A DNA stretch of 64,000 bases from a virus (IMGVR_UViG_3300025679_000005); one strand, 5' to 3'. Numbered from the stretch's first letter, positions 835-63,778 are shown. Notes: generated from the sequence alone by a model not told the origin. Numbers and translations are program-made.

Positions 835-1176
835 ATGTCTGAGCTTGAATTCTTGGAGACCCTGTATGAGATGAACGGTGAAGGCGAGTCTAAAATAGAC
901 GCGACCCTTGACCACATCTTTCAGTGGACTAACACGCAGTTCAGCTCGGGCAAATTCGCCGTCGTTGATTCGATGTTGGCCATGATCGACCCGCAGTACT
1001 TCGGGGAAGACCTGATTGTTGGACTGATCCTTTCTACTTACCCTGGCCGGGACGAACTCCAGCAGTGGGAGGAGTTCGTCTCTCGTTGCAGGTACCAACT
1101 AGATGGCCTCCTAGGACCCGTGGTGGCAAGCGTGATTTTCAGCCAGCTGGACCTGAAGCTGTCGGGATCGGTGTAG
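835..1176 (+). CDS. Hypothetical protein; paralog of the C-terminal domain of 14823-15395
   Basis: Shared pattern F..G.F..V..ML...LVG.....DL....FVSRCR..L...LG. Confidence 0.6.
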   Translation: MSELEFLETLYEMNGEGESKIDATLDHIFQWTNTQFSSGKFAVVDSMLAMIDPQYFGEDLIVGLILSTYPGRDELQQWEEFVSRCRYQLDGLLGPVVASVIFSQLDLKLSGSV

Positions 1177-1184
1177 TTAATGGC

Positions 1185-1733
1185 ATGGAGCCATACGCCA
1201 ATCGCGGTAAAATAGACTTGAAAGGGGTCCTCAAGCGGGATGCCAAAGCCCTTGATGACCTCATGTTCTGGGTCGCCAATCATGTGCACACCTTTGGGAG
1301 GGTCCTAATAGAGGGCCCTGACAACACACCCTACTTGCTACGGGTCTACTTGACCCCCAAGCGTAGCGGGGATAGTTGGTGGCCAGGAGTGTTCTTACAT
1401 CGGTTCTTCCGCTCGGACGCTGATAGGTGGCCTCATAATCACCCATGGTGTGATTCCATGAGTCTGATCCTCACCAATGGTTACCTGGAGAATCGTTGGG
1501 ACTTCAAGCTCAAGGCCTTCCGCAAGATCATGCGGAAACCGTTCCGGCTCAACTTCATCAAGGCCAACGACTTTCACAGGGTCGATTTGGTTGACACCGA
1601 GAATGGCTGCTGGACCCTGTTCATTGCCTTCCAGCGGTCCCAGAACTGGGGCTTCCTCAACTTGGAGACCGGAGAGGTCATCCCCCATCAAGACTATCTA
1701 CCGGCCGGCGCAGACGGCCTAGCTAACGACTAG
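1185..1733 (+). CDS. Hypothetical phage protein with a His-rich cupin-like motif
   Basis: LHRFFRSDADRWPHNHPW...FHRV; start chosen 9 nt after GGTGTA at 1170. Confidence 0.55.
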   Translation: MEPYANRGKIDLKGVLKRDAKALDDLMFWVANHVHTFGRVLIEGPDNTPYLLRVYLTPKRSGDSWWPGVFLHRFFRSDADRWPHNHPWCDSMSLILTNGYLENRWDFKLKAFRKIMRKPFRLNFIKANDFHRVDLVDTENGCWTLFIAFQRSQNWGFLNLETGEVIPHQDYLPAGADGLAND

Positions 1734-2010
1734 ACTTGAACTTCACGGCTGTGAACGTTCCAACGCCGTAACCTAGGACGAAGCAGGCAGCTACTCGCCA
1801 ATCTCGGATGGACTCACCGATCCCAAGGACTTGGGCACAGCCAATGGCCATCGAGCACAAGGCAGTGGGAAGGGCTTTGTTGCGTTCCGAGAAGTGGACC
1901 CAGAAGACGCAGGCGGTCTCAATGACGAAGCCGCTAGCGAAGGCCAGGGGAGTGGCAACCCAAAGGTTCATGTGGTCAGGTAGTCGAACGGGCCACGTAT
2001 TGCCGAGCAC
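1723..2010 (-). CDS. Small membrane protein
   Basis: Three hydrophobic stretches in 95 aa. Confidence 0.5.
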   Translation of the reverse strand: MLGNTWPVRLPDHMNLWVATPLAFASGFVIETACVFWVHFSERNKALPTALCSMAIGCAQVLGIGESIRDWRVAACFVLGYGVGTFTAVKFKSSR

Positions 2011-2516
2011 CCATCCGCCGCAATCTGAGCTGCCTTACGCAAAGCCTTCTCCGGCCTATTGATGGGTCTTTGAGCGGAAAGGGCTGCTGTCCCCGCTGCT
2101 ATGGCCACCGTGTGTCCAGCACCGTCCATGCCATCGGCTGACCGCCAAACCGAGAACTCCGAGTCTACGAAGTACAGCTTTCCACGTAAACCCGCTAGGA
2201 GCTGCCATTCTGTTTCTCCAGCCTCAGCAGCTTCTTTCGCATACCCTTCAGAGGTAAACAACGAACGTATGCTGTCGACCAGTTCTACGTTTACAGCACG
2301 GTCTACGTCATCCGCTGCCGATATTTTAGGGGCCCTCAGTTTGAACTTGAGTAGGGACATAGCCCGCCAGCAACCCGCCACCCCTAGCAGCCATTCCCCA
2401 GACCTGAACACCTTGGCATCTCGGACAACACGGGCTGCGTCACTGGAGTCCACGGAGATACGATCGCCGATCATATGGACTTTGCCACGATGTTCTAGGG
2501 CTAGAATGAGGGTCAT
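1968..2516 (-). CDS. Ntn-hydrolase (HslV/proteasome-beta-like) peptidase
   Basis: N-terminal M-T-L-I, GDR, AKVFRSGEWLLGVAG; paralog of 60481-61014. Confidence 0.65.
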   Translation of the reverse strand: MTLILALEHRGKVHMIGDRISVDSSDAARVVRDAKVFRSGEWLLGVAGCWRAMSLLKFKLRAPKISAADDVDRAVNVELVDSIRSLFTSEGYAKEAAEAGETEWQLLAGLRGKLYFVDSEFSVWRSADGMDGAGHTVAIAAGTAALSAQRPINRPEKALRKAAQIAADGCSAIRGPFDYLTT

Positions 2517-2584
2517 TTAGGTTGATCCTGACGTGTTTGAGGGGTTCTGTCCAAGGCCTGAACGAAACCCCTCAATTCACAGGG

Positions 2585-61663: not shown

Positions 61664-62005
61664 TCACAGTATTTGGTCCTCCATCAGCCGGTCCCAGACG
61701 GAGCGGCCTTCTTCGAGGATGGTCACTACTGGGGTCGAAGGCAGTTGGAAGCTAGGAGGAGGTGCGTAGGGGTACCATGTATTGGCTGTTGCAAAACCCA
61801 AAGGATCCATCGTCGCATTCCTGCGCTGCAACACCGGCACTAATCGATTCAGACCGCTCCAAACAGCGGTATCCACCGCTGTTTGAGCAGCGTAGGATCC
61901 ATCACTAGCAAGTAGCATCAACCCCGCGGTCAACTGGGTGACGCTATTGGTTAGTTCAGAGACCTGAGCCTCCAGCTCTCGTATGCGCTCGTTTTCGTAG
62001 GCCAT
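61664..62005 (-). CDS. Coiled-coil hypothetical protein with SVWDRL tail
   Basis: Ends GRSVWDRLMEDQIL; GGTGTA 11 nt upstream. Confidence 0.65.
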   Translation of the reverse strand: MAYENERIRELEAQVSELTNSVTQLTAGLMLLASDGSYAAQTAVDTAVWSGLNRLVPVLQRRNATMDPLGFATANTWYPYAPPPSFQLPSTPVVTILEEGRSVWDRLMEDQIL

Positions 62006-62191
62006 ATCACTGGCTTTACACCGGGAAGTCAGTCCTCAGGAAGGAATCCTGACAAGACTCTTTCGAGAAGACTTGGCCGACGTTCGTGACGCCGCCGCTC
62101 GTTCTTCTCTTTCTTTTCGGCTTTGGCTTCAGCCCGCTTGGCTATCTCTGGGTCCTTGTTCTCCAAGACTCTGTACAGGACCCACTTGCCC

Positions 62192-62436
62192 TCAACTAGG
62201 GCAATCACAACGGACTTCGCCGGAAACCGCCCCAGCTTCTGAGCGTGCTTTGGACCTTACACCAAAGGCTCTGAGACTCACTCGCCCTATTTCCAAGCCA
62301 ATGGCGATTGTTGCCATCACGAAGAAGGCCGTGGCTTTGATCCAGTTGGGCGGATTGCTCAGATCCATGCTAACATCGGCGCACAATGTCGAGCAAATCC
62401 AGGTGCCGTATTCGGTCTGGGCGTGGAAGAAGGTGC
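62192..62436 (-). pseudogene. 3' part of an 89-aa gene interrupted by tnpB element 2 (5' part at 63726-63750)
   Basis: Joining gives MTLTEFHG-RTFFHAQTEYGTW...CDCPS stop, 270 nt in frame. Confidence 0.6.
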
Positions 62437-63725
62437 GGTTTTGCCCAAAAAGTCTTGGCGGCTCATAAAGACACCCATTCTTCTCTGGACTTCGGCTGAG
62501 AACCTACCTGCCGTAAGGCCTGTAGGTTCTCGTTGACCGCGCTCAAACCGAGCGCTTTAATGTTACACCCCGCATTCTGGTCACGATCCATGACGAGACC
62601 ACACTCGGGGCAATTGTGGATGCGGAACCGTAGTCCCTTGGGGACGACGGTTCCGCACGCATGACACCTCTGTGTAGTTCCTCGTGGATCAACTCCTACC
62701 GCTAACTTACCAGCTTCTTCCGCTTTGCATTTTAGGCAGTGGATTGTAATTGACCAGGACGCATCCGAGATTGATTTCGCTAGATTGATCTTCGGCTTCC
62801 CATCTCTGGAAGGACCTCTGGAAGGACCTGAGATCATCTCCTGAATCGAGAGGTCCTCGTAACAGACGATGTCATTCGTTTCAAAGAGGGACTTAGCCAG
62901 CTTCCTAGCGTGATCTAGCCTCTGATTCTTGATGTGAGCGTGAGCCCGCTGGACTAGGGTCTTGGCCCGTCTCCTAGAGGAGCTGCCACGGCGCTTGCGT
63001 TGCATAGCGCGTTGGCGTTGGGCCAAAAGGTCTTGCCCCGCCTTGAAATAACGAGGATTCTCGATCGTTGTTCCGTCATCAAGGGTACCGAAGTGGGTGA
63101 GTCCTAGGTCAATGCCGACGGACTTCGTGGGGTCGATCACGACCTCAGGGGCTACTCCCAAATCGCACTGGAAGATCACAAACCATTTACCGGCTTCTCT
63201 TCTAACTGAGACATCAAGGATCTCTCCTTTATGGGGCCGATATTGGTTGAATTTGACTAGGCCTAGCTTGGGGATCTTGACTCTGGCAGAGGAAACCCTC
63301 TTGATCTTAGGCTCAATTTTCGTAGTAGTCTGAAGAGCAAACGAGTCGTAGCGCTTGTAGCTACGGAACCGCGGGAAGCCAGGGGCTTCGCCCGTCTTCA
63401 CGCGGCGGAAGAATGCCTTGAAGGCATCGTCTAATCGCTTGAGCGGAGATCGAAGGATCGTGGCTGGGATCGCTTCGAAGTCAGGGTCTTGAGATCGAAT
63501 GATGGTCAGGGACTTCTGTTGATCATAGAGAGTCAGACTCTTTTTGAACTTTAGGTAGTGACTTTTCCGCTCTTCCAGGGCGCCGTTGTAGAGGCTATTG
63601 CACATGAAGAGCCAGTTGGCCATTCTGGCCTCCTGGTCCTTCGTGGGATACAGCGGATAACGAAAAGAGCGAATCATTCGGTTATTCTAACACAAAAAAT
63701 GGTTTCATGGGCAAAGCCGAGGCTG
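62437..63725 (-). mobile_element. Non-autonomous tnpB-only IS element, copy 2
   Basis: Same end sequences as copy 1; preceded by ATGGGC on the minus strand. Confidence 0.75.
62463..63677 (-). CDS. tnpB: RNA-guided endonuclease TnpB, close paralog of 23985-25166
   Basis: GIDLG, YEDL, DRDQNA and zinc finger intact. Confidence 0.93.
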   Translation of the reverse strand: MIRSFRYPLYPTKDQEARMANWLFMCNSLYNGALEERKSHYLKFKKSLTLYDQQKSLTIIRSQDPDFEAIPATILRSPLKRLDDAFKAFFRRVKTGEAPGFPRFRSYKRYDSFALQTTTKIEPKIKRVSSARVKIPKLGLVKFNQYRPHKGEILDVSVRREAGKWFVIFQCDLGVAPEVVIDPTKSVGIDLGLTHFGTLDDGTTIENPRYFKAGQDLLAQRQRAMQRKRRGSSSRRRAKTLVQRAHAHIKNQRLDHARKLAKSLFETNDIVCYEDLSIQEMISGPSRGPSRDGKPKINLAKSISDASWSITIHCLKCKAEEAGKLAVGVDPRGTTQRCHACGTVVPKGLRFRIHNCPECGLVMDRDQNAGCNIKALGLSAVNENLQALRQVGSQPKSREEWVSL

Positions 63726-63761
63726 GCCCATGAAATTCGGTGAGGGTCATGCCTAAACCTC

Positions 63762-63778
63762 TACACCAAAGTGGTGTA
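63762..63778. promoter_or_regulatory. Divergent GGTGTA promoter pair
   Basis: TACACC-AAAGT-GGTGTA, 11 and 10 nt from the ATGs at 63750 (minus) and 63789 (plus). Confidence 0.65.

What the first reader, a model, noticed from the sequence alone, without database searches (positions are those of the whole stretch)
1170..63778. GGTGTA motif 8-14 nt upstream of about 28 start codons: probable leaderless-mRNA promoter
Seen, giving the leftmost plus-strand coordinate of each hexamer. Plus strand: 1170, 6519, 8307, 9571, 12769, 16268, 18568, 21022, 22995, 23429, 46829, 47320, 49793, 53203, 59095, 61066, 63773. Minus strand: 5886, 8296, 11671, 12758, 15726, 18558, 31775, 33664, 59073, 62017, 63762. 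Most gaps are 9-11 nt and usually lack a Shine-Dalgarno sequence. Five sites form back-to-back divergent pairs. The hexamer alone is expected about 30 times by chance, so the signal is the fixed spacing, not the count. Known: a TANNNT -10 box a few nt before the start codon marks leaderless transcripts. Inference: GGTG-TANNN is a phage promoter class, possibly read by a phage sigma factor or polymerase, giving many monocistronic leaderless mRNAs.
Basis: partly seen in the sequence, partly recalled or inferred. Interest (0 to 1): 0.7.

Follow-up and report, generated by a model that had tools for sequence, protein, structure and literature searches.

The report
Compact leaderless promoter of huge phages
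A seven-base signal, (C/T)GGTGTA, sits 9-11 bases before about a third of the genes in this stretch of a 464-kb soil phage and is most likely a very compact phage-specific promoter that starts each messenger RNA right at its start codon, so these genes need no ribosome-binding site.

Summary
GGTGTA occurs 57 times against 16 expected. In 28 cases a start codon opening an ORF of at least 50 aa follows 8-14 nt later, mostly 9-10 nt (ATG only: 24/57 against 3.4% background, p 1e-20). Every start-linked copy is preceded by C or T, and nothing is conserved from -40 to -3, so there is no -35 box.

The same signal is present in unrelated huge-phage contigs: 62 against 1 control in a 372-kb IMG/VR phage, and 28 against 5 in a 241-kb one. 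It precedes dCTP-deaminase and methylase orthologues in three phages whose flanks cannot be aligned.

Several results favour transcription over translation:
- Single-base variants of the hexamer sit at background.
- The true anti-Shine-Dalgarno complement GGTGAT shows no spike.
- Close copies lack a Shine-Dalgarno sequence, while distant copies are followed by AGGAGG.
- The box also heads non-coding genes: the window's CRISPR array, an ORF-less hairpin RNA and, in the relative, a suppressor tRNA.

No transcript data could be obtained, so the start sites are inferred. The factor that reads the box is unknown. A divergent phage sigma-like family travels with the motif in relatives, but I could not find it in this phage.

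The scan had already found this motif on other DNA (at least 15 genomes by its notes). Verdict: new variant of a known kind.

The parts
1170..1187 (+). tcGGTGTA box, gap 9, ATG 1185 (182-aa ORF 1185-1733)
5873..5891 (-). ctGGTGTA box, gap 10, TTG 5875 (1096-aa intein/LAGLIDADG-containing ORF 2585-5875)
6519..6540 (+). ctGGTGTA box, gap 13, ATG 6538 (UDP-glucose dehydrogenase 6538-7839)
8284..8324 (.). Back-to-back pair: CAT(8284-8286)-N9-TACACC-N5-GGTGTA-N9-ATG(8322). The two divergent start codons are 35 bp apart. Genes are 8032-8286(-) and the cytidylyltransferase-like 8322-8843(+).
9571..9588 (+). ttGGTGTA box inside the 3' end of gene 8840-9580, gap 9, ATG 9586 (glycosyltransferase-like 9586-10149)
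11659..11676 (-). ccGGTGTA box, gap 9, ATG 11661 (96-aa ORF)
12745..12789 (.). Back-to-back pair TACACC-N5-GGTGTA. Minus gene 12265-12747 at gap 10; plus gene 12787-13458 (Bax1-I family) at gap 12.
15713..15731 (-). ctGGTGTA box, gap 10, ATG 15715 (107 aa)
16268..16285 (+). tcGGTGTA box, gap 9, ATG 16283 (61 aa, followed by 413-aa gene)
18545..18585 (.). Back-to-back pair TACACC-N4-GGTGTA. Minus gene 18074-18547 (GTG, gap 10); plus gene 18583-18909 (gap 9).
21022..21040 (+). tcGGTGTA box, gap 10, ATG 21038 (NT5C-type nucleotidase)
22995..23015 (+). ttGGTGTA box, gap 12, GTG 23013 (140 aa)
23429..23447 (+). ctGGTGTA box, gap 10, ATG 23445 (61 aa)
25648..25666 (+). tcGGTGTA box, gap 10, ATG 25664 (445-aa orphan protein).
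31760..31780 (-). ctGGTGTA box, gap 12, ATG 31762 (DNA methyltransferase 30767-31762)
33651..33669 (-). ttGGTGTA box, gap 10, ATG 33653 (197 aa)
33716..33995 (+). Non-coding target. TTAAC(33716)-N17-CGTA(33738) (class-2 box) overlaps a tGGTGTA box (33747-33752), about 200 nt upstream of the first type I-C CRISPR repeat (33960-33995). The only ORF nearby is 26 codons at gap 4.
39664..39713 (+). cGGTGTA box 41 nt before cas5 ATG 39711. It follows a hairpin after the last repeat. A class-2 CCTTAAG-N16-CCGTTAGG box and an AGGAAG Shine-Dalgarno-like stretch lie in between.
46829..46847 (+). ccGGTGTA box, gap 10, ATG 46845 (HTH protein, 134 aa)
47320..47339 (+). ttttccGGTGTA box, gap 11, ATG 47337 (87 aa)
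47611..47716 (+). ttttccGGTGTA box with no ORF. It is followed by a two-hairpin RNA of about 90 nt ending in a U-run (candidate small RNA 47626-47716).
49793..49814 (+). tcGGTGTA box, gap 13, ATG 49812 (201 aa)
53203..53221 (+). tcGGTGTA box, gap 10, GTG 53219 (228 aa)
59061..59117 (.). Back-to-back pair TACACC-N16-GGTGTA. Minus gene 58875-59063 (gap 9); plus gene 59115-59585 (gap 14).
61066..61082 (+). ttttccGGTGTA box, gap 8 to ATG 61080 (or gap 11 to the next ATG), 156 aa
62003..62022 (-). ccGGTGTA box, gap 11, ATG 62005 (113 aa)
63748..63791 (.). Back-to-back pair TACACC-N5-GGTGTA. On the minus side, gap 11 leads to a 22-codon ORF upstream of tnpB 62463-63677. On the plus side, gap 10 leads to ATG 63789 (ORF runs off the window).

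Best explanation
YGGTGTA is the single recognition box of a phage-specific promoter class. It occupies roughly -17 to -11 relative to the transcription start, with TA at -12/-11. RNA polymerase is therefore inferred to start 9-11 nt downstream of the box. Selection has placed the A of the start codon exactly there, so the first gene of each transcription unit is translated from a leaderless mRNA (0-3 nt of 5' UTR) without a Shine-Dalgarno sequence. Later genes in the unit rely on overlap coupling or weak Shine-Dalgarno sequences. Where the box lies further upstream, a normal leader with a Shine-Dalgarno sequence is used. The same box also drives non-coding RNAs.

No -35 element is needed, which allows two boxes to sit back-to-back 0-5 bp apart and serve divergent genes whose start codons are only 32-35 bp apart. 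The enzyme is most probably the host core polymerase carrying a phage-encoded sigma-like factor, with middle-phase timing; this step is inferred.

Shown here: position, invariance, spacing, absence of -35 and SD, non-coding targets, and conservation across phages. Inferred: the start site, the leaderless state and the reading factor.
For: 1. Enrichment and spacing. In the window, 57 copies against 16 expected, with 28 at gap 8-14 and a mode of 9-10. In G001 (372 kb, 59% GC), which shares only 5 window proteins at 29-49% identity, the gaps are 9:7, 10:53, 11:23. YGGTGTA-N9-10-ATG gives 62 hits against 1 for the reversed control. G007 (241 kb) gives 28 against 5.

2. The hexamer is all-or-none. 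At gap 9-11 before first-ATG ORFs in G001, exact copies number 56 against 5 at control gaps. All one-mismatch variants together number 17 against 22.

3. There is a single box. Information content is at most 0.35 bit per position from -40 to -3 in the window and at most 0.14 bit per position from -45 to -3 in G001. Position -1 is C or T in 28/28 window sites. The box alone carries about 13-15 bits, against the 12.7 bits needed to specify 113 sites in G001.

4. Geometry resembles a -10 element. In G001 the consensus is cGGTGTA-t-g-n-T, that is TAnnnT, with T at the sixth position in 69/113 sites. Gap 10 then puts the A of ATG at +1 with a 6-nt discriminator.

5. SD use is complementary to distance. 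Among Y-preceded boxes in G001, those at gap 8-12 have a 4-mer or longer SD in 2/48 cases. Boxes at gap 16-80 have one in 13/31 cases, including perfect AGGAGG at correct spacing.

6. Non-coding targets. These are the window's CRISPR array, the cas operon with a 41-nt leader, and an ORF-less terminator-ended hairpin RNA. In G001, a suppressor tRNA(UUA) has a mature 5' G that lies 11 nt after the box.

7. The signal is not SD-like. GGTGAT, GGTGAA, GGTGnn and nGTGTA show no peak.

8. Position in transcription units. Motif-led genes more often have a divergent upstream neighbour (26/68 against 54/337, p 9e-5). They rarely abut the upstream gene (5% against 42% within 5 nt). They start with ATG in 61/68 cases. 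Divergent box pairs far outnumber convergent ones (17 against 2 in G001, 5 against 1 in the window).

9. Orthologue test. dCTP deaminase and an N6/N4 methylase carry the box at gap 9-14 in three phages (L105, L106, G001), although the surrounding DNA cannot be aligned.

10. Phage specificity. Five Polyangiaceae/Myxococcales genomes, the best-hit lineage for the phage's UDP-glucose dehydrogenase, hold 17-50 matches per 5-10 Mb. That is roughly 50-fold lower density than in the phages.

11. Candidate reader. A very divergent sigma-like family has only 232 clusters in 1.8 billion representatives. It has a region-2 match, a long insertion and a C-terminal HTH. It is present in every relative with the motif that I could inspect: G001, G007, L105, L106 and L107. 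No polymerase beta-subunit or T7-type polymerase was detected in G001.
Against: No transcript 5' ends are available, so the start site and the leaderless state are inferences from geometry.

In this window the sixth position of the putative -10 hexamer is not T (5/28), so the sigma70-style reading of the box is weaker here than in G001.

About half of all GGTGTA copies (29/57) are not start-linked. Many of these lack the preceding pyrimidine or lie inside genes. Whether they fire is unknown.

Four start-linked sites use GTG or TTG, which are poor leaderless start codons.

The sigma-like family was not found for this phage. The rest of the 464-kb contig could not be reached, and two word-based searches returned no member on it. 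Family members do carry a region-4-like HTH, which fits a strictly -35-less promoter poorly. G001 is only 78% complete, so an unusual phage polymerase cannot be excluded.
Confidence: 0.75

Rival explanations
1. The box is a -35-independent, extended -10-type promoter read by the host's own primary sigma holoenzyme. A phage protein that disables region 4 may assist, as with the Thermus phage P23-45 middle/late promoters. No phage sigma would be involved. Transcripts would still be leaderless.
For: The TAnnnT shape with an upstream TG in G001. P23-45 middle and late promoters are of the extended -10 class and escape gp39 inhibition of -10/-35 promoters (PMC7403470).
Against: TG sits at -14/-13, not at the canonical -15/-14. 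All six bases are invariant with no tolerated single mismatch, whereas host -10 elements are degenerate. T at -7 is absent in the window. The candidate host-lineage genomes do not use the signal, although the true host is unknown.
Confidence: 0.15
2. The box acts in the RNA as a translation-initiation signal. It would be an alternative ribosome-binding site pairing with the CACC of the 16S 3' tail, or a site recognised by a phage-modified ribosome, at a fixed distance from the start codon.
For: GGUG is complementary to part of the 16S 3' end. The fixed distance to the start codon and the lack of a normal SD are what first drew attention.
Against: GGTGAT and GGTGAA, the real anti-SD complements, and every other GGTGnn show no peak. 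The box precedes a tRNA, a CRISPR array and an ORF-less RNA. Spacing tolerance of +/-1 nt is tighter than for SD elements. In back-to-back pairs with 0-5 bp between the boxes, no upstream promoter could lie outside the opposite gene. When the box is far from the start, a normal AGGAGG appears.
Confidence: 0.04
3. The box is an operator for a phage DNA-binding regulator, or an RNA-processing site that trims leaders. It would overlap promoters that are themselves too degenerate to see.
For: Palindromic TACACC-N5-GGTGTA and TACACCGGTGTA arrangements look like dimer-binding sites. The phage encodes HTH proteins, one of which is itself motif-driven (46845-47249).
Against: Most sites are single half-sites. 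Orientation is strictly tied to the downstream gene, with a +/-1 nt distance to the start codon. No other conserved element lies within -45 to +20 that could be the real promoter. A sigma70-type scan of 46.5-49.9 kb finds none.
Confidence: 0.06

Closest known systems
Middle/late promoters of coliphage phiEco32, read by the phage sigma gp36 with gp79 (Xu et al. 2025, PMC12276001)
   Same: A phage-specific, nearly invariant box around -10 with a shared TGTA core. In phiEco32, -12T and -11G are read by a sigma2-like domain. The factor is a small divergent phage sigma on the host core enzyme.
   Different: gp36 also needs base contacts at -37 and -34, whereas here nothing upstream of -19 is conserved. 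The extension is GG rather than AA. The fixed placement on the start codon (leaderless design) is not a described feature of phiEco32. No sequence link between gp36 and the sigma-like family found here was tested or seen.
T4 late promoters (TATAAATA at -10) read by gp55 with gp33 (own knowledge)
   Same: A single-box, -35-less promoter read by a highly divergent phage sigma-like protein.
   Different: The sequence differs. T4 late transcription depends on the sliding clamp, and T4 late mRNAs have leaders with Shine-Dalgarno sequences. No gp55 or gp33 homologue was tested here.
Extended -10 middle/late promoters of Thermus phage P23-45, with gp39/gp76 (PMC7403470; Berdygulova et al. 2011, paper not readable here)
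   Same: A -35-independent phage promoter class used after host -10/-35 promoters are shut off.
   Different: These are read by the host sigma A. TG lies at the canonical position and the -10 element is degenerate.
Leaderless-mRNA promoters of Actinobacteria and Deinococcus-Thermus (TANNNT 6-7 nt before the start codon; e.g. PMC4633059)
   Same: The geometry matches: a -10 element ends about 6-7 nt before an AUG that is also +1, there is no SD, and AUG is strongly preferred.
   Different: Those are ordinary host sigma A promoters with a degenerate -10 and usually a -35. Here the box is an invariant 7-mer, specific to the phage and without a -35.

Membership tests
Leaderless mRNA (transcription start = start codon) | Primary 5' end at the A of AUG, or within about 3 nt of it | not testable with these tools
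   No RNA run was listed for this DNA. The start is inferred from the box-to-ATG gap of 9-11 nt.
Leaderless mRNA (transcription start = start codon) | No Shine-Dalgarno sequence before the start codon, and AUG preferred | tested here: met
   A 5-mer or longer SD occurs in 0/16 window sites and 1/48 G001 sites at gap 8-12. ATG is the start in 24/28 window sites and 61/68 G001 sites.
Sigma70-family -10 element (TAnnnT) | A at -11 and T at -7, with the hexamer ending 6-8 nt before +1 | tested here: inconclusive
   In G001, T at the sixth position occurs in 69/113 sites and the geometry fits. In the window it occurs in only 5/28. +1 has not been mapped.
Extended -10 (TGn) promoter class | TG at -15/-14, one base before the hexamer | tested here: not met
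   TG directly abuts TA (GGTG-TA). If TA is at -12/-11, TG is at -14/-13.
-10/-35 bipartite promoter | A conserved element 16-19 bp upstream of the -10 box | tested here: not met
   No position from -45 to -3 exceeds 0.35 bit (window) or 0.14 bit (G001). Back-to-back pairs leave no room for one.
Shine-Dalgarno-type ribosome-binding site | Complementarity to the 16S 3' tail, a spacing window of 5-10 nt, and restriction to coding genes | tested here: not met
   GGTGAT, GGTGAA and GGTGnn show no peak. tRNA, CRISPR array and ORF-less RNA targets exist.
Promoter read by a phage-encoded sigma | The phage encodes a sigma with a region-2-like domain whose presence tracks the motif | tested here: inconclusive
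   The family is present in G001, G007, L105, L106 and L107, all of which carry the motif. It was not found for this phage, whose contig was unreachable beyond the window and 7.5 kb past its end. No motif-free control phages were examined.

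The most novel reading that the evidence does not exclude
A whole clade of huge soil phages may run a middle-phase programme in three parts.
1. A dedicated, very divergent sigma-like protein (the roughly 300-aa family with an insertion in region 2), together with its adjacent paralogue-like partner gene, reads an invariant 7-bp box with no -35 contact.
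2. The start codon, or the first base of a tRNA or small RNA, is placed exactly at +1. Proteins and even tRNAs would then be made without leaders, bypassing host Shine-Dalgarno-dependent initiation and RNase P trimming.
3. Abutting palindromic boxes (TACACC-N0/5-GGTGTA) act as mutually exclusive bidirectional starts.
Probability: 0.3. Interest if true: 0.75.

Novelty: new variant of a known kind. Interest (0 to 1): 0.55.

Why it matters
If confirmed, one 7-bp box would mark about a third of the transcription units in this stretch of the phage and in relatives up to several hundred kb. This would have several uses:
- It fixes true start codons in genomes where gene callers often choose upstream GTG or TTG starts.
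- It reveals non-coding genes.
- It separates temporal gene classes in uncultivated huge phages.
- It is among the most compact promoter-plus-translation-start designs I know of (about 20 bp), which suits synthetic biology.
- It gives a direct handle, box plus candidate sigma-like family, for in vitro reconstitution without a cultured host.
- It shows that large-scale leaderless expression, known from Actinobacteria, Deinococcus-Thermus and archaea, may be a deliberate phage strategy.

Tried and rejected
- RNA evidence: no RNA holder was listed for window 5800-15799.
- Reaching the rest of the phage: no whole genome is held. The contig (ENA ERZ27294387 k141_731965, 464,302 bp) is not in viral contigs, the GenBank phage set or the JGI metagenome index. 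It cannot be searched through its locus. Walking about 70-130 kb to the sigma-like genes reported in earlier notes would have cost more look-ups than allowed.
- Window proteins as bait for relatives: the 445-aa motif-driven protein is an orphan.
- Orthologous promoter comparison between the window and G001: the gene before the one shared gene pair is not homologous, and the DNA alignment is meaningless.
- Sigma-like family: the whole-protein fold search gave only weak sigma hits (E at least 0.09). The PDB profile search was weak (SigB region 2, E 0.03). No paralogues were found in G001, the window or L081. The A4 alignment was too diverse for a locus scan.
- The class-2 motif TTAAC-N16-17-CGTT is absent from G001, so it cannot explain the shared box.
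- A literature search for GGTGTA as a phage promoter returned only unrelated papers.
- Berdygulova et al. 2011 could not be read.

Full report
**What the window is**

The window lies in a 464,302-bp metagenomic contig (ENA ERZ27294387 k141_731965; window = about 159,773-223,772 of it). Earlier notes of this scan describe the contig as a huge peat phage carrying CasPhi.

The window itself is an accessory region. It holds the following:
- TnpB-type transposases and DNA methylases
- nucleotide and sugar enzymes
- an intein-bearing 1096-aa protein
- a type I-C-like CRISPR locus: an array at about 33,960-39,533, followed by cas5, csd1/cas8c, cas7 and a Cas3-like helicase, with no recognisable adaptation genes

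**Observation**

GGTGTA occurs 57 times on both strands. Dinucleotide-preserving shuffles expect 16.1 +/- 4.4, and none of 100 shuffles reached 57.

In 28 cases an ATG, GTG or TTG that opens an ORF of at least 50 aa follows at a gap of 8-14 nt. The gap distribution is 8:1, 9:8, 10:11, 11:2, 12:3, 13:2, 14:1. The background rate for random positions is 9.7%. With ATG only, the figures are 24/57 against 3.4% (p 1.3e-20).

One listed site, 63762(-), leads only to a 22-codon ORF ahead of tnpB. One site, 25648(+), was missed. Control hexamers show no peak.

The start codons are almost always the first possible start of their ORF. For three enzymes, the motif-predicted start places the Pfam domain at residue 5-13.

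**Anatomy**

I aligned the 28 start-linked copies.
- The base before the hexamer is C or T in 28/28, and the one before that in 25/28.
- The two bases after the hexamer avoid C.
- Nothing between -40 and -3 exceeds 0.35 bit.

Copies not linked to a start lack the pyrimidine preference and are often followed by C (GGT-GTA-C in coding frames).

There are five divergent pairs: TACACC-N5-GGTGTA three times, N4 once and N16 once. Only one convergent pair exists. At 8284-8324 the two divergent start codons are 35 bp apart.

**The same signal in unrelated huge phages**

A scan of IMG/VR for CAT-N10-TACACC-N5-GGTGTA-N10-ATG returned one contig of 371,739 bp, here called G001. It shares only five of about 80 window proteins, at 29-49% identity, and has 59% G+C against 54%.

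In G001:
- YGGTGTA-N9-10-ATG occurs 62 times, against once for the reversed control.
- The gap histogram is 9:7, 10:53, 11:23.
- 113 start-linked sites give the consensus y-C-GGTGTA-T-G-n-T, with no position from -45 to -3 above 0.14 bit.
- TA-t-g-n-T has the shape of a -10 hexamer (TAnnnT). A gap of 10 then places the A of ATG at +1 after a 6-nt discriminator.

In an unbiased test over all first-ATG ORFs, the exact hexamer at gap 9-11 occurs 56 times against 5 at control gaps. All one-mismatch variants together occur 17 times against 22. Recognition is therefore all-or-none, unlike host -10 elements.

A third IMG/VR phage, G007 (241 kb), gives 28 matches against 5 control. Three metagenomic contigs (L105-L107) also carry start-linked boxes.

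dCTP deaminase and an N6/N4 methylase are syntenic orthologues in L105, L106 and G001. Each keeps YGGTGTA at gap 9-14, while the flanking DNA cannot be aligned.

Notes from this scan report the motif in at least 15 genomes. One earlier follow-up reached the same reading. I treated those notes as leads and tested the claim independently.

**Transcription or translation?**

Five results point to transcription.

1. The box heads non-coding genes. In the window, tGGTGTA at 33747 lies about 200 nt before the first CRISPR repeat. cGGTGTA at 39664 lies 41 nt before cas5, just after a hairpin that follows the last repeat. ttttccGGTGTA at 47611 is followed by no ORF but by a two-hairpin RNA of about 90 nt ending in a U-run (-38 kcal/mol, z -2.96). 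In G001 a suppressor tRNA (anticodon UUA) begins 11 nt after ccGGTGTA, with TATGTT as the -10-like hexamer. This implies a tRNA made with little or no 5' leader.

2. SD use depends on distance. Boxes at gap 8-12 almost never have a Shine-Dalgarno sequence (2/48 with a 4-mer or longer in G001). Boxes 16-80 nt from the start often do (13/31), including perfect AGGAGG at normal spacing.

3. The true anti-Shine-Dalgarno complement GGTGAT, and every other GGTGnn, shows no peak.

4. The +/-1 nt spacing is tighter than for ribosome-binding sites.

5. In G001, three pairs have abutting boxes (TACACCGGTGTA) with start codons about 32 bp apart. No separate upstream promoter could exist outside the opposite gene.

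Motif-led genes also behave as first genes of transcription units. Their upstream neighbour is divergent in 26/68 cases against 54/337 (p 9e-5). They seldom abut the preceding gene. They use ATG in 61/68 cases.

**What is not supported**

The units are not mostly monocistronic. There are about 29 boxes for about 80 genes. Many downstream genes overlap their predecessor by 1-4 nt. Some boxes, such as 9571, lie inside the end of the upstream gene.

The T at the sixth position of the -10-like hexamer is not conserved in this window (5/28).

**Who reads it?**

This part is inference.

Five Polyangiaceae/Myxococcales genomes, the best-hit lineage of the phage's UDP-glucose dehydrogenase, hold the pattern at about 50-fold lower density. 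The signal therefore looks phage-specific, though the true host is unknown.

G001 shows no polymerase beta subunit, no T7-type polymerase, and no NADFDGD motif in a long ORF. It is only 78% complete.

G001 does encode two candidate factors.
- A 303-aa sigma-like protein with a region-2 match, a long insertion and a C-terminal HTH. Its family is small, with 232 clusters at E <= 1e-3 among 1.8 billion representatives. It sits in a conserved block: dCTP deaminase, DnaJ, the sigma-like gene, a 270-aa partner with weak similarity to the sigma C-terminal half, and a methylase. This block is seen in G001, L105 and L106, and in part on shorter contigs. In L105 and G001 a TTGAC-N17-TAGnAC sequence precedes the sigma-like gene. 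This fits early transcription by the host enzyme.
- A protein made of two region-4-like HTH units.

I could not show that this phage encodes the sigma-like family. An earlier unchecked note reports adjacent sigma-like ORFs about 130 kb beyond the window.

**Comparison with known systems**

- phiEco32 gp36 promoters share a TGTA core, read at -12/-11 by a sigma2-like domain, but also need -37/-34 contacts (PMC12276001).
- T4 late promoters are single-box and are read by a divergent phage sigma (own knowledge).
- P23-45 middle and late promoters are -35-independent but are read by the host sigma (PMC7403470).
- Host leaderless promoters of Actinobacteria and Deinococcus share the geometry.

None of these combines an invariant 7-mer, no -35 element and systematic placement on the start codon. 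A full-text search found no description of GGTGTA as a phage promoter.

**Verdict**

It is a new variant of a known kind and had already been seen by this scan on other DNA.

- Confidence that it is a promoter giving leaderless or near-leaderless RNAs: 0.75.
- Confidence that a phage-encoded sigma-like factor reads it: about 0.5.
- Interest: 0.55.

Noticed in passing
window 27021-27062, 33716-33741, 39676-39713, 47889-47928 (+); 57989-58029, 58844-58878 (-): A second promoter-like class, (C)TTAAC/G-N16-17-CGTT/A (often CCGTTAGG), ends 9-13 nt before start codons. It sits in tandem with the GGTGTA box before the CRISPR array and the cas operon. It is absent from the relative G001, so it is lineage-specific.
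   Followed up: partly
window 33960-46776: Phage-borne type I-C-like CRISPR locus. It has a long array with at least two repeat variants, then cas5, csd1/cas8c, cas7 and a helicase-only Cas3-like protein. No cas1, cas2 or cas4 is recognisable. A hairpin follows the last repeat.
   Followed up: partly
window 47626-47716 (+): Candidate small RNA of about 90 nt. It is box-driven and ORF-less, with two hairpins and a U-run terminator. It has no Rfam match.
   Followed up: partly
L086 1338-1430 (G001): A UAA-suppressor tRNA (anticodon UUA) whose mature 5' end lies 11 nt after a ccGGTGTA box. This suggests a tRNA transcribed without a 5' leader. G001 also carries 46 other tRNAs and a tmRNA in one block (247-276 kb).
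   Followed up: partly
L105 5470-5500; L107 1050-1080; L100 2905-2935(-) (G001): A conserved TAGTTCTTCTATG element lies about 25-35 nt upstream of the gene that follows the sigma-like gene in three phages, with a weaker copy in L106. Its function is unknown.
   Followed up: no
L105 4440-4480; L100 3950-3990(-) (G001): A sigma70-like TTGAC-N17-TAGnAC sequence lies upstream of the phage sigma-like gene in two phages. This suggests the gene is an early one read by the host enzyme.
   Followed up: no
window 15779, 51727-53148(-), 62463-63677(-), 23949-25166(+): Several TnpB/IS605-family genes. Two share the upstream string AATTCCTTTATTG. Copies at 24.5-25.1 kb and 62.5-63.1 kb are about 80% identical in DNA.
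   Followed up: no
window 2585-5875 (-): A 1096-aa ORF with Hint/intein and LAGLIDADG domains. The host protein was not identified. Its motif-predicted start is TTG, which is unusual for a leaderless start.
   Followed up: no
window and G001, genome-wide: Shine-Dalgarno use is weak overall in these phages. GGAGG shows only a shallow peak before starts, and many genes overlap by 1-4 nt. Translation appears to rely largely on leaderless starts and coupling.
   Followed up: partly
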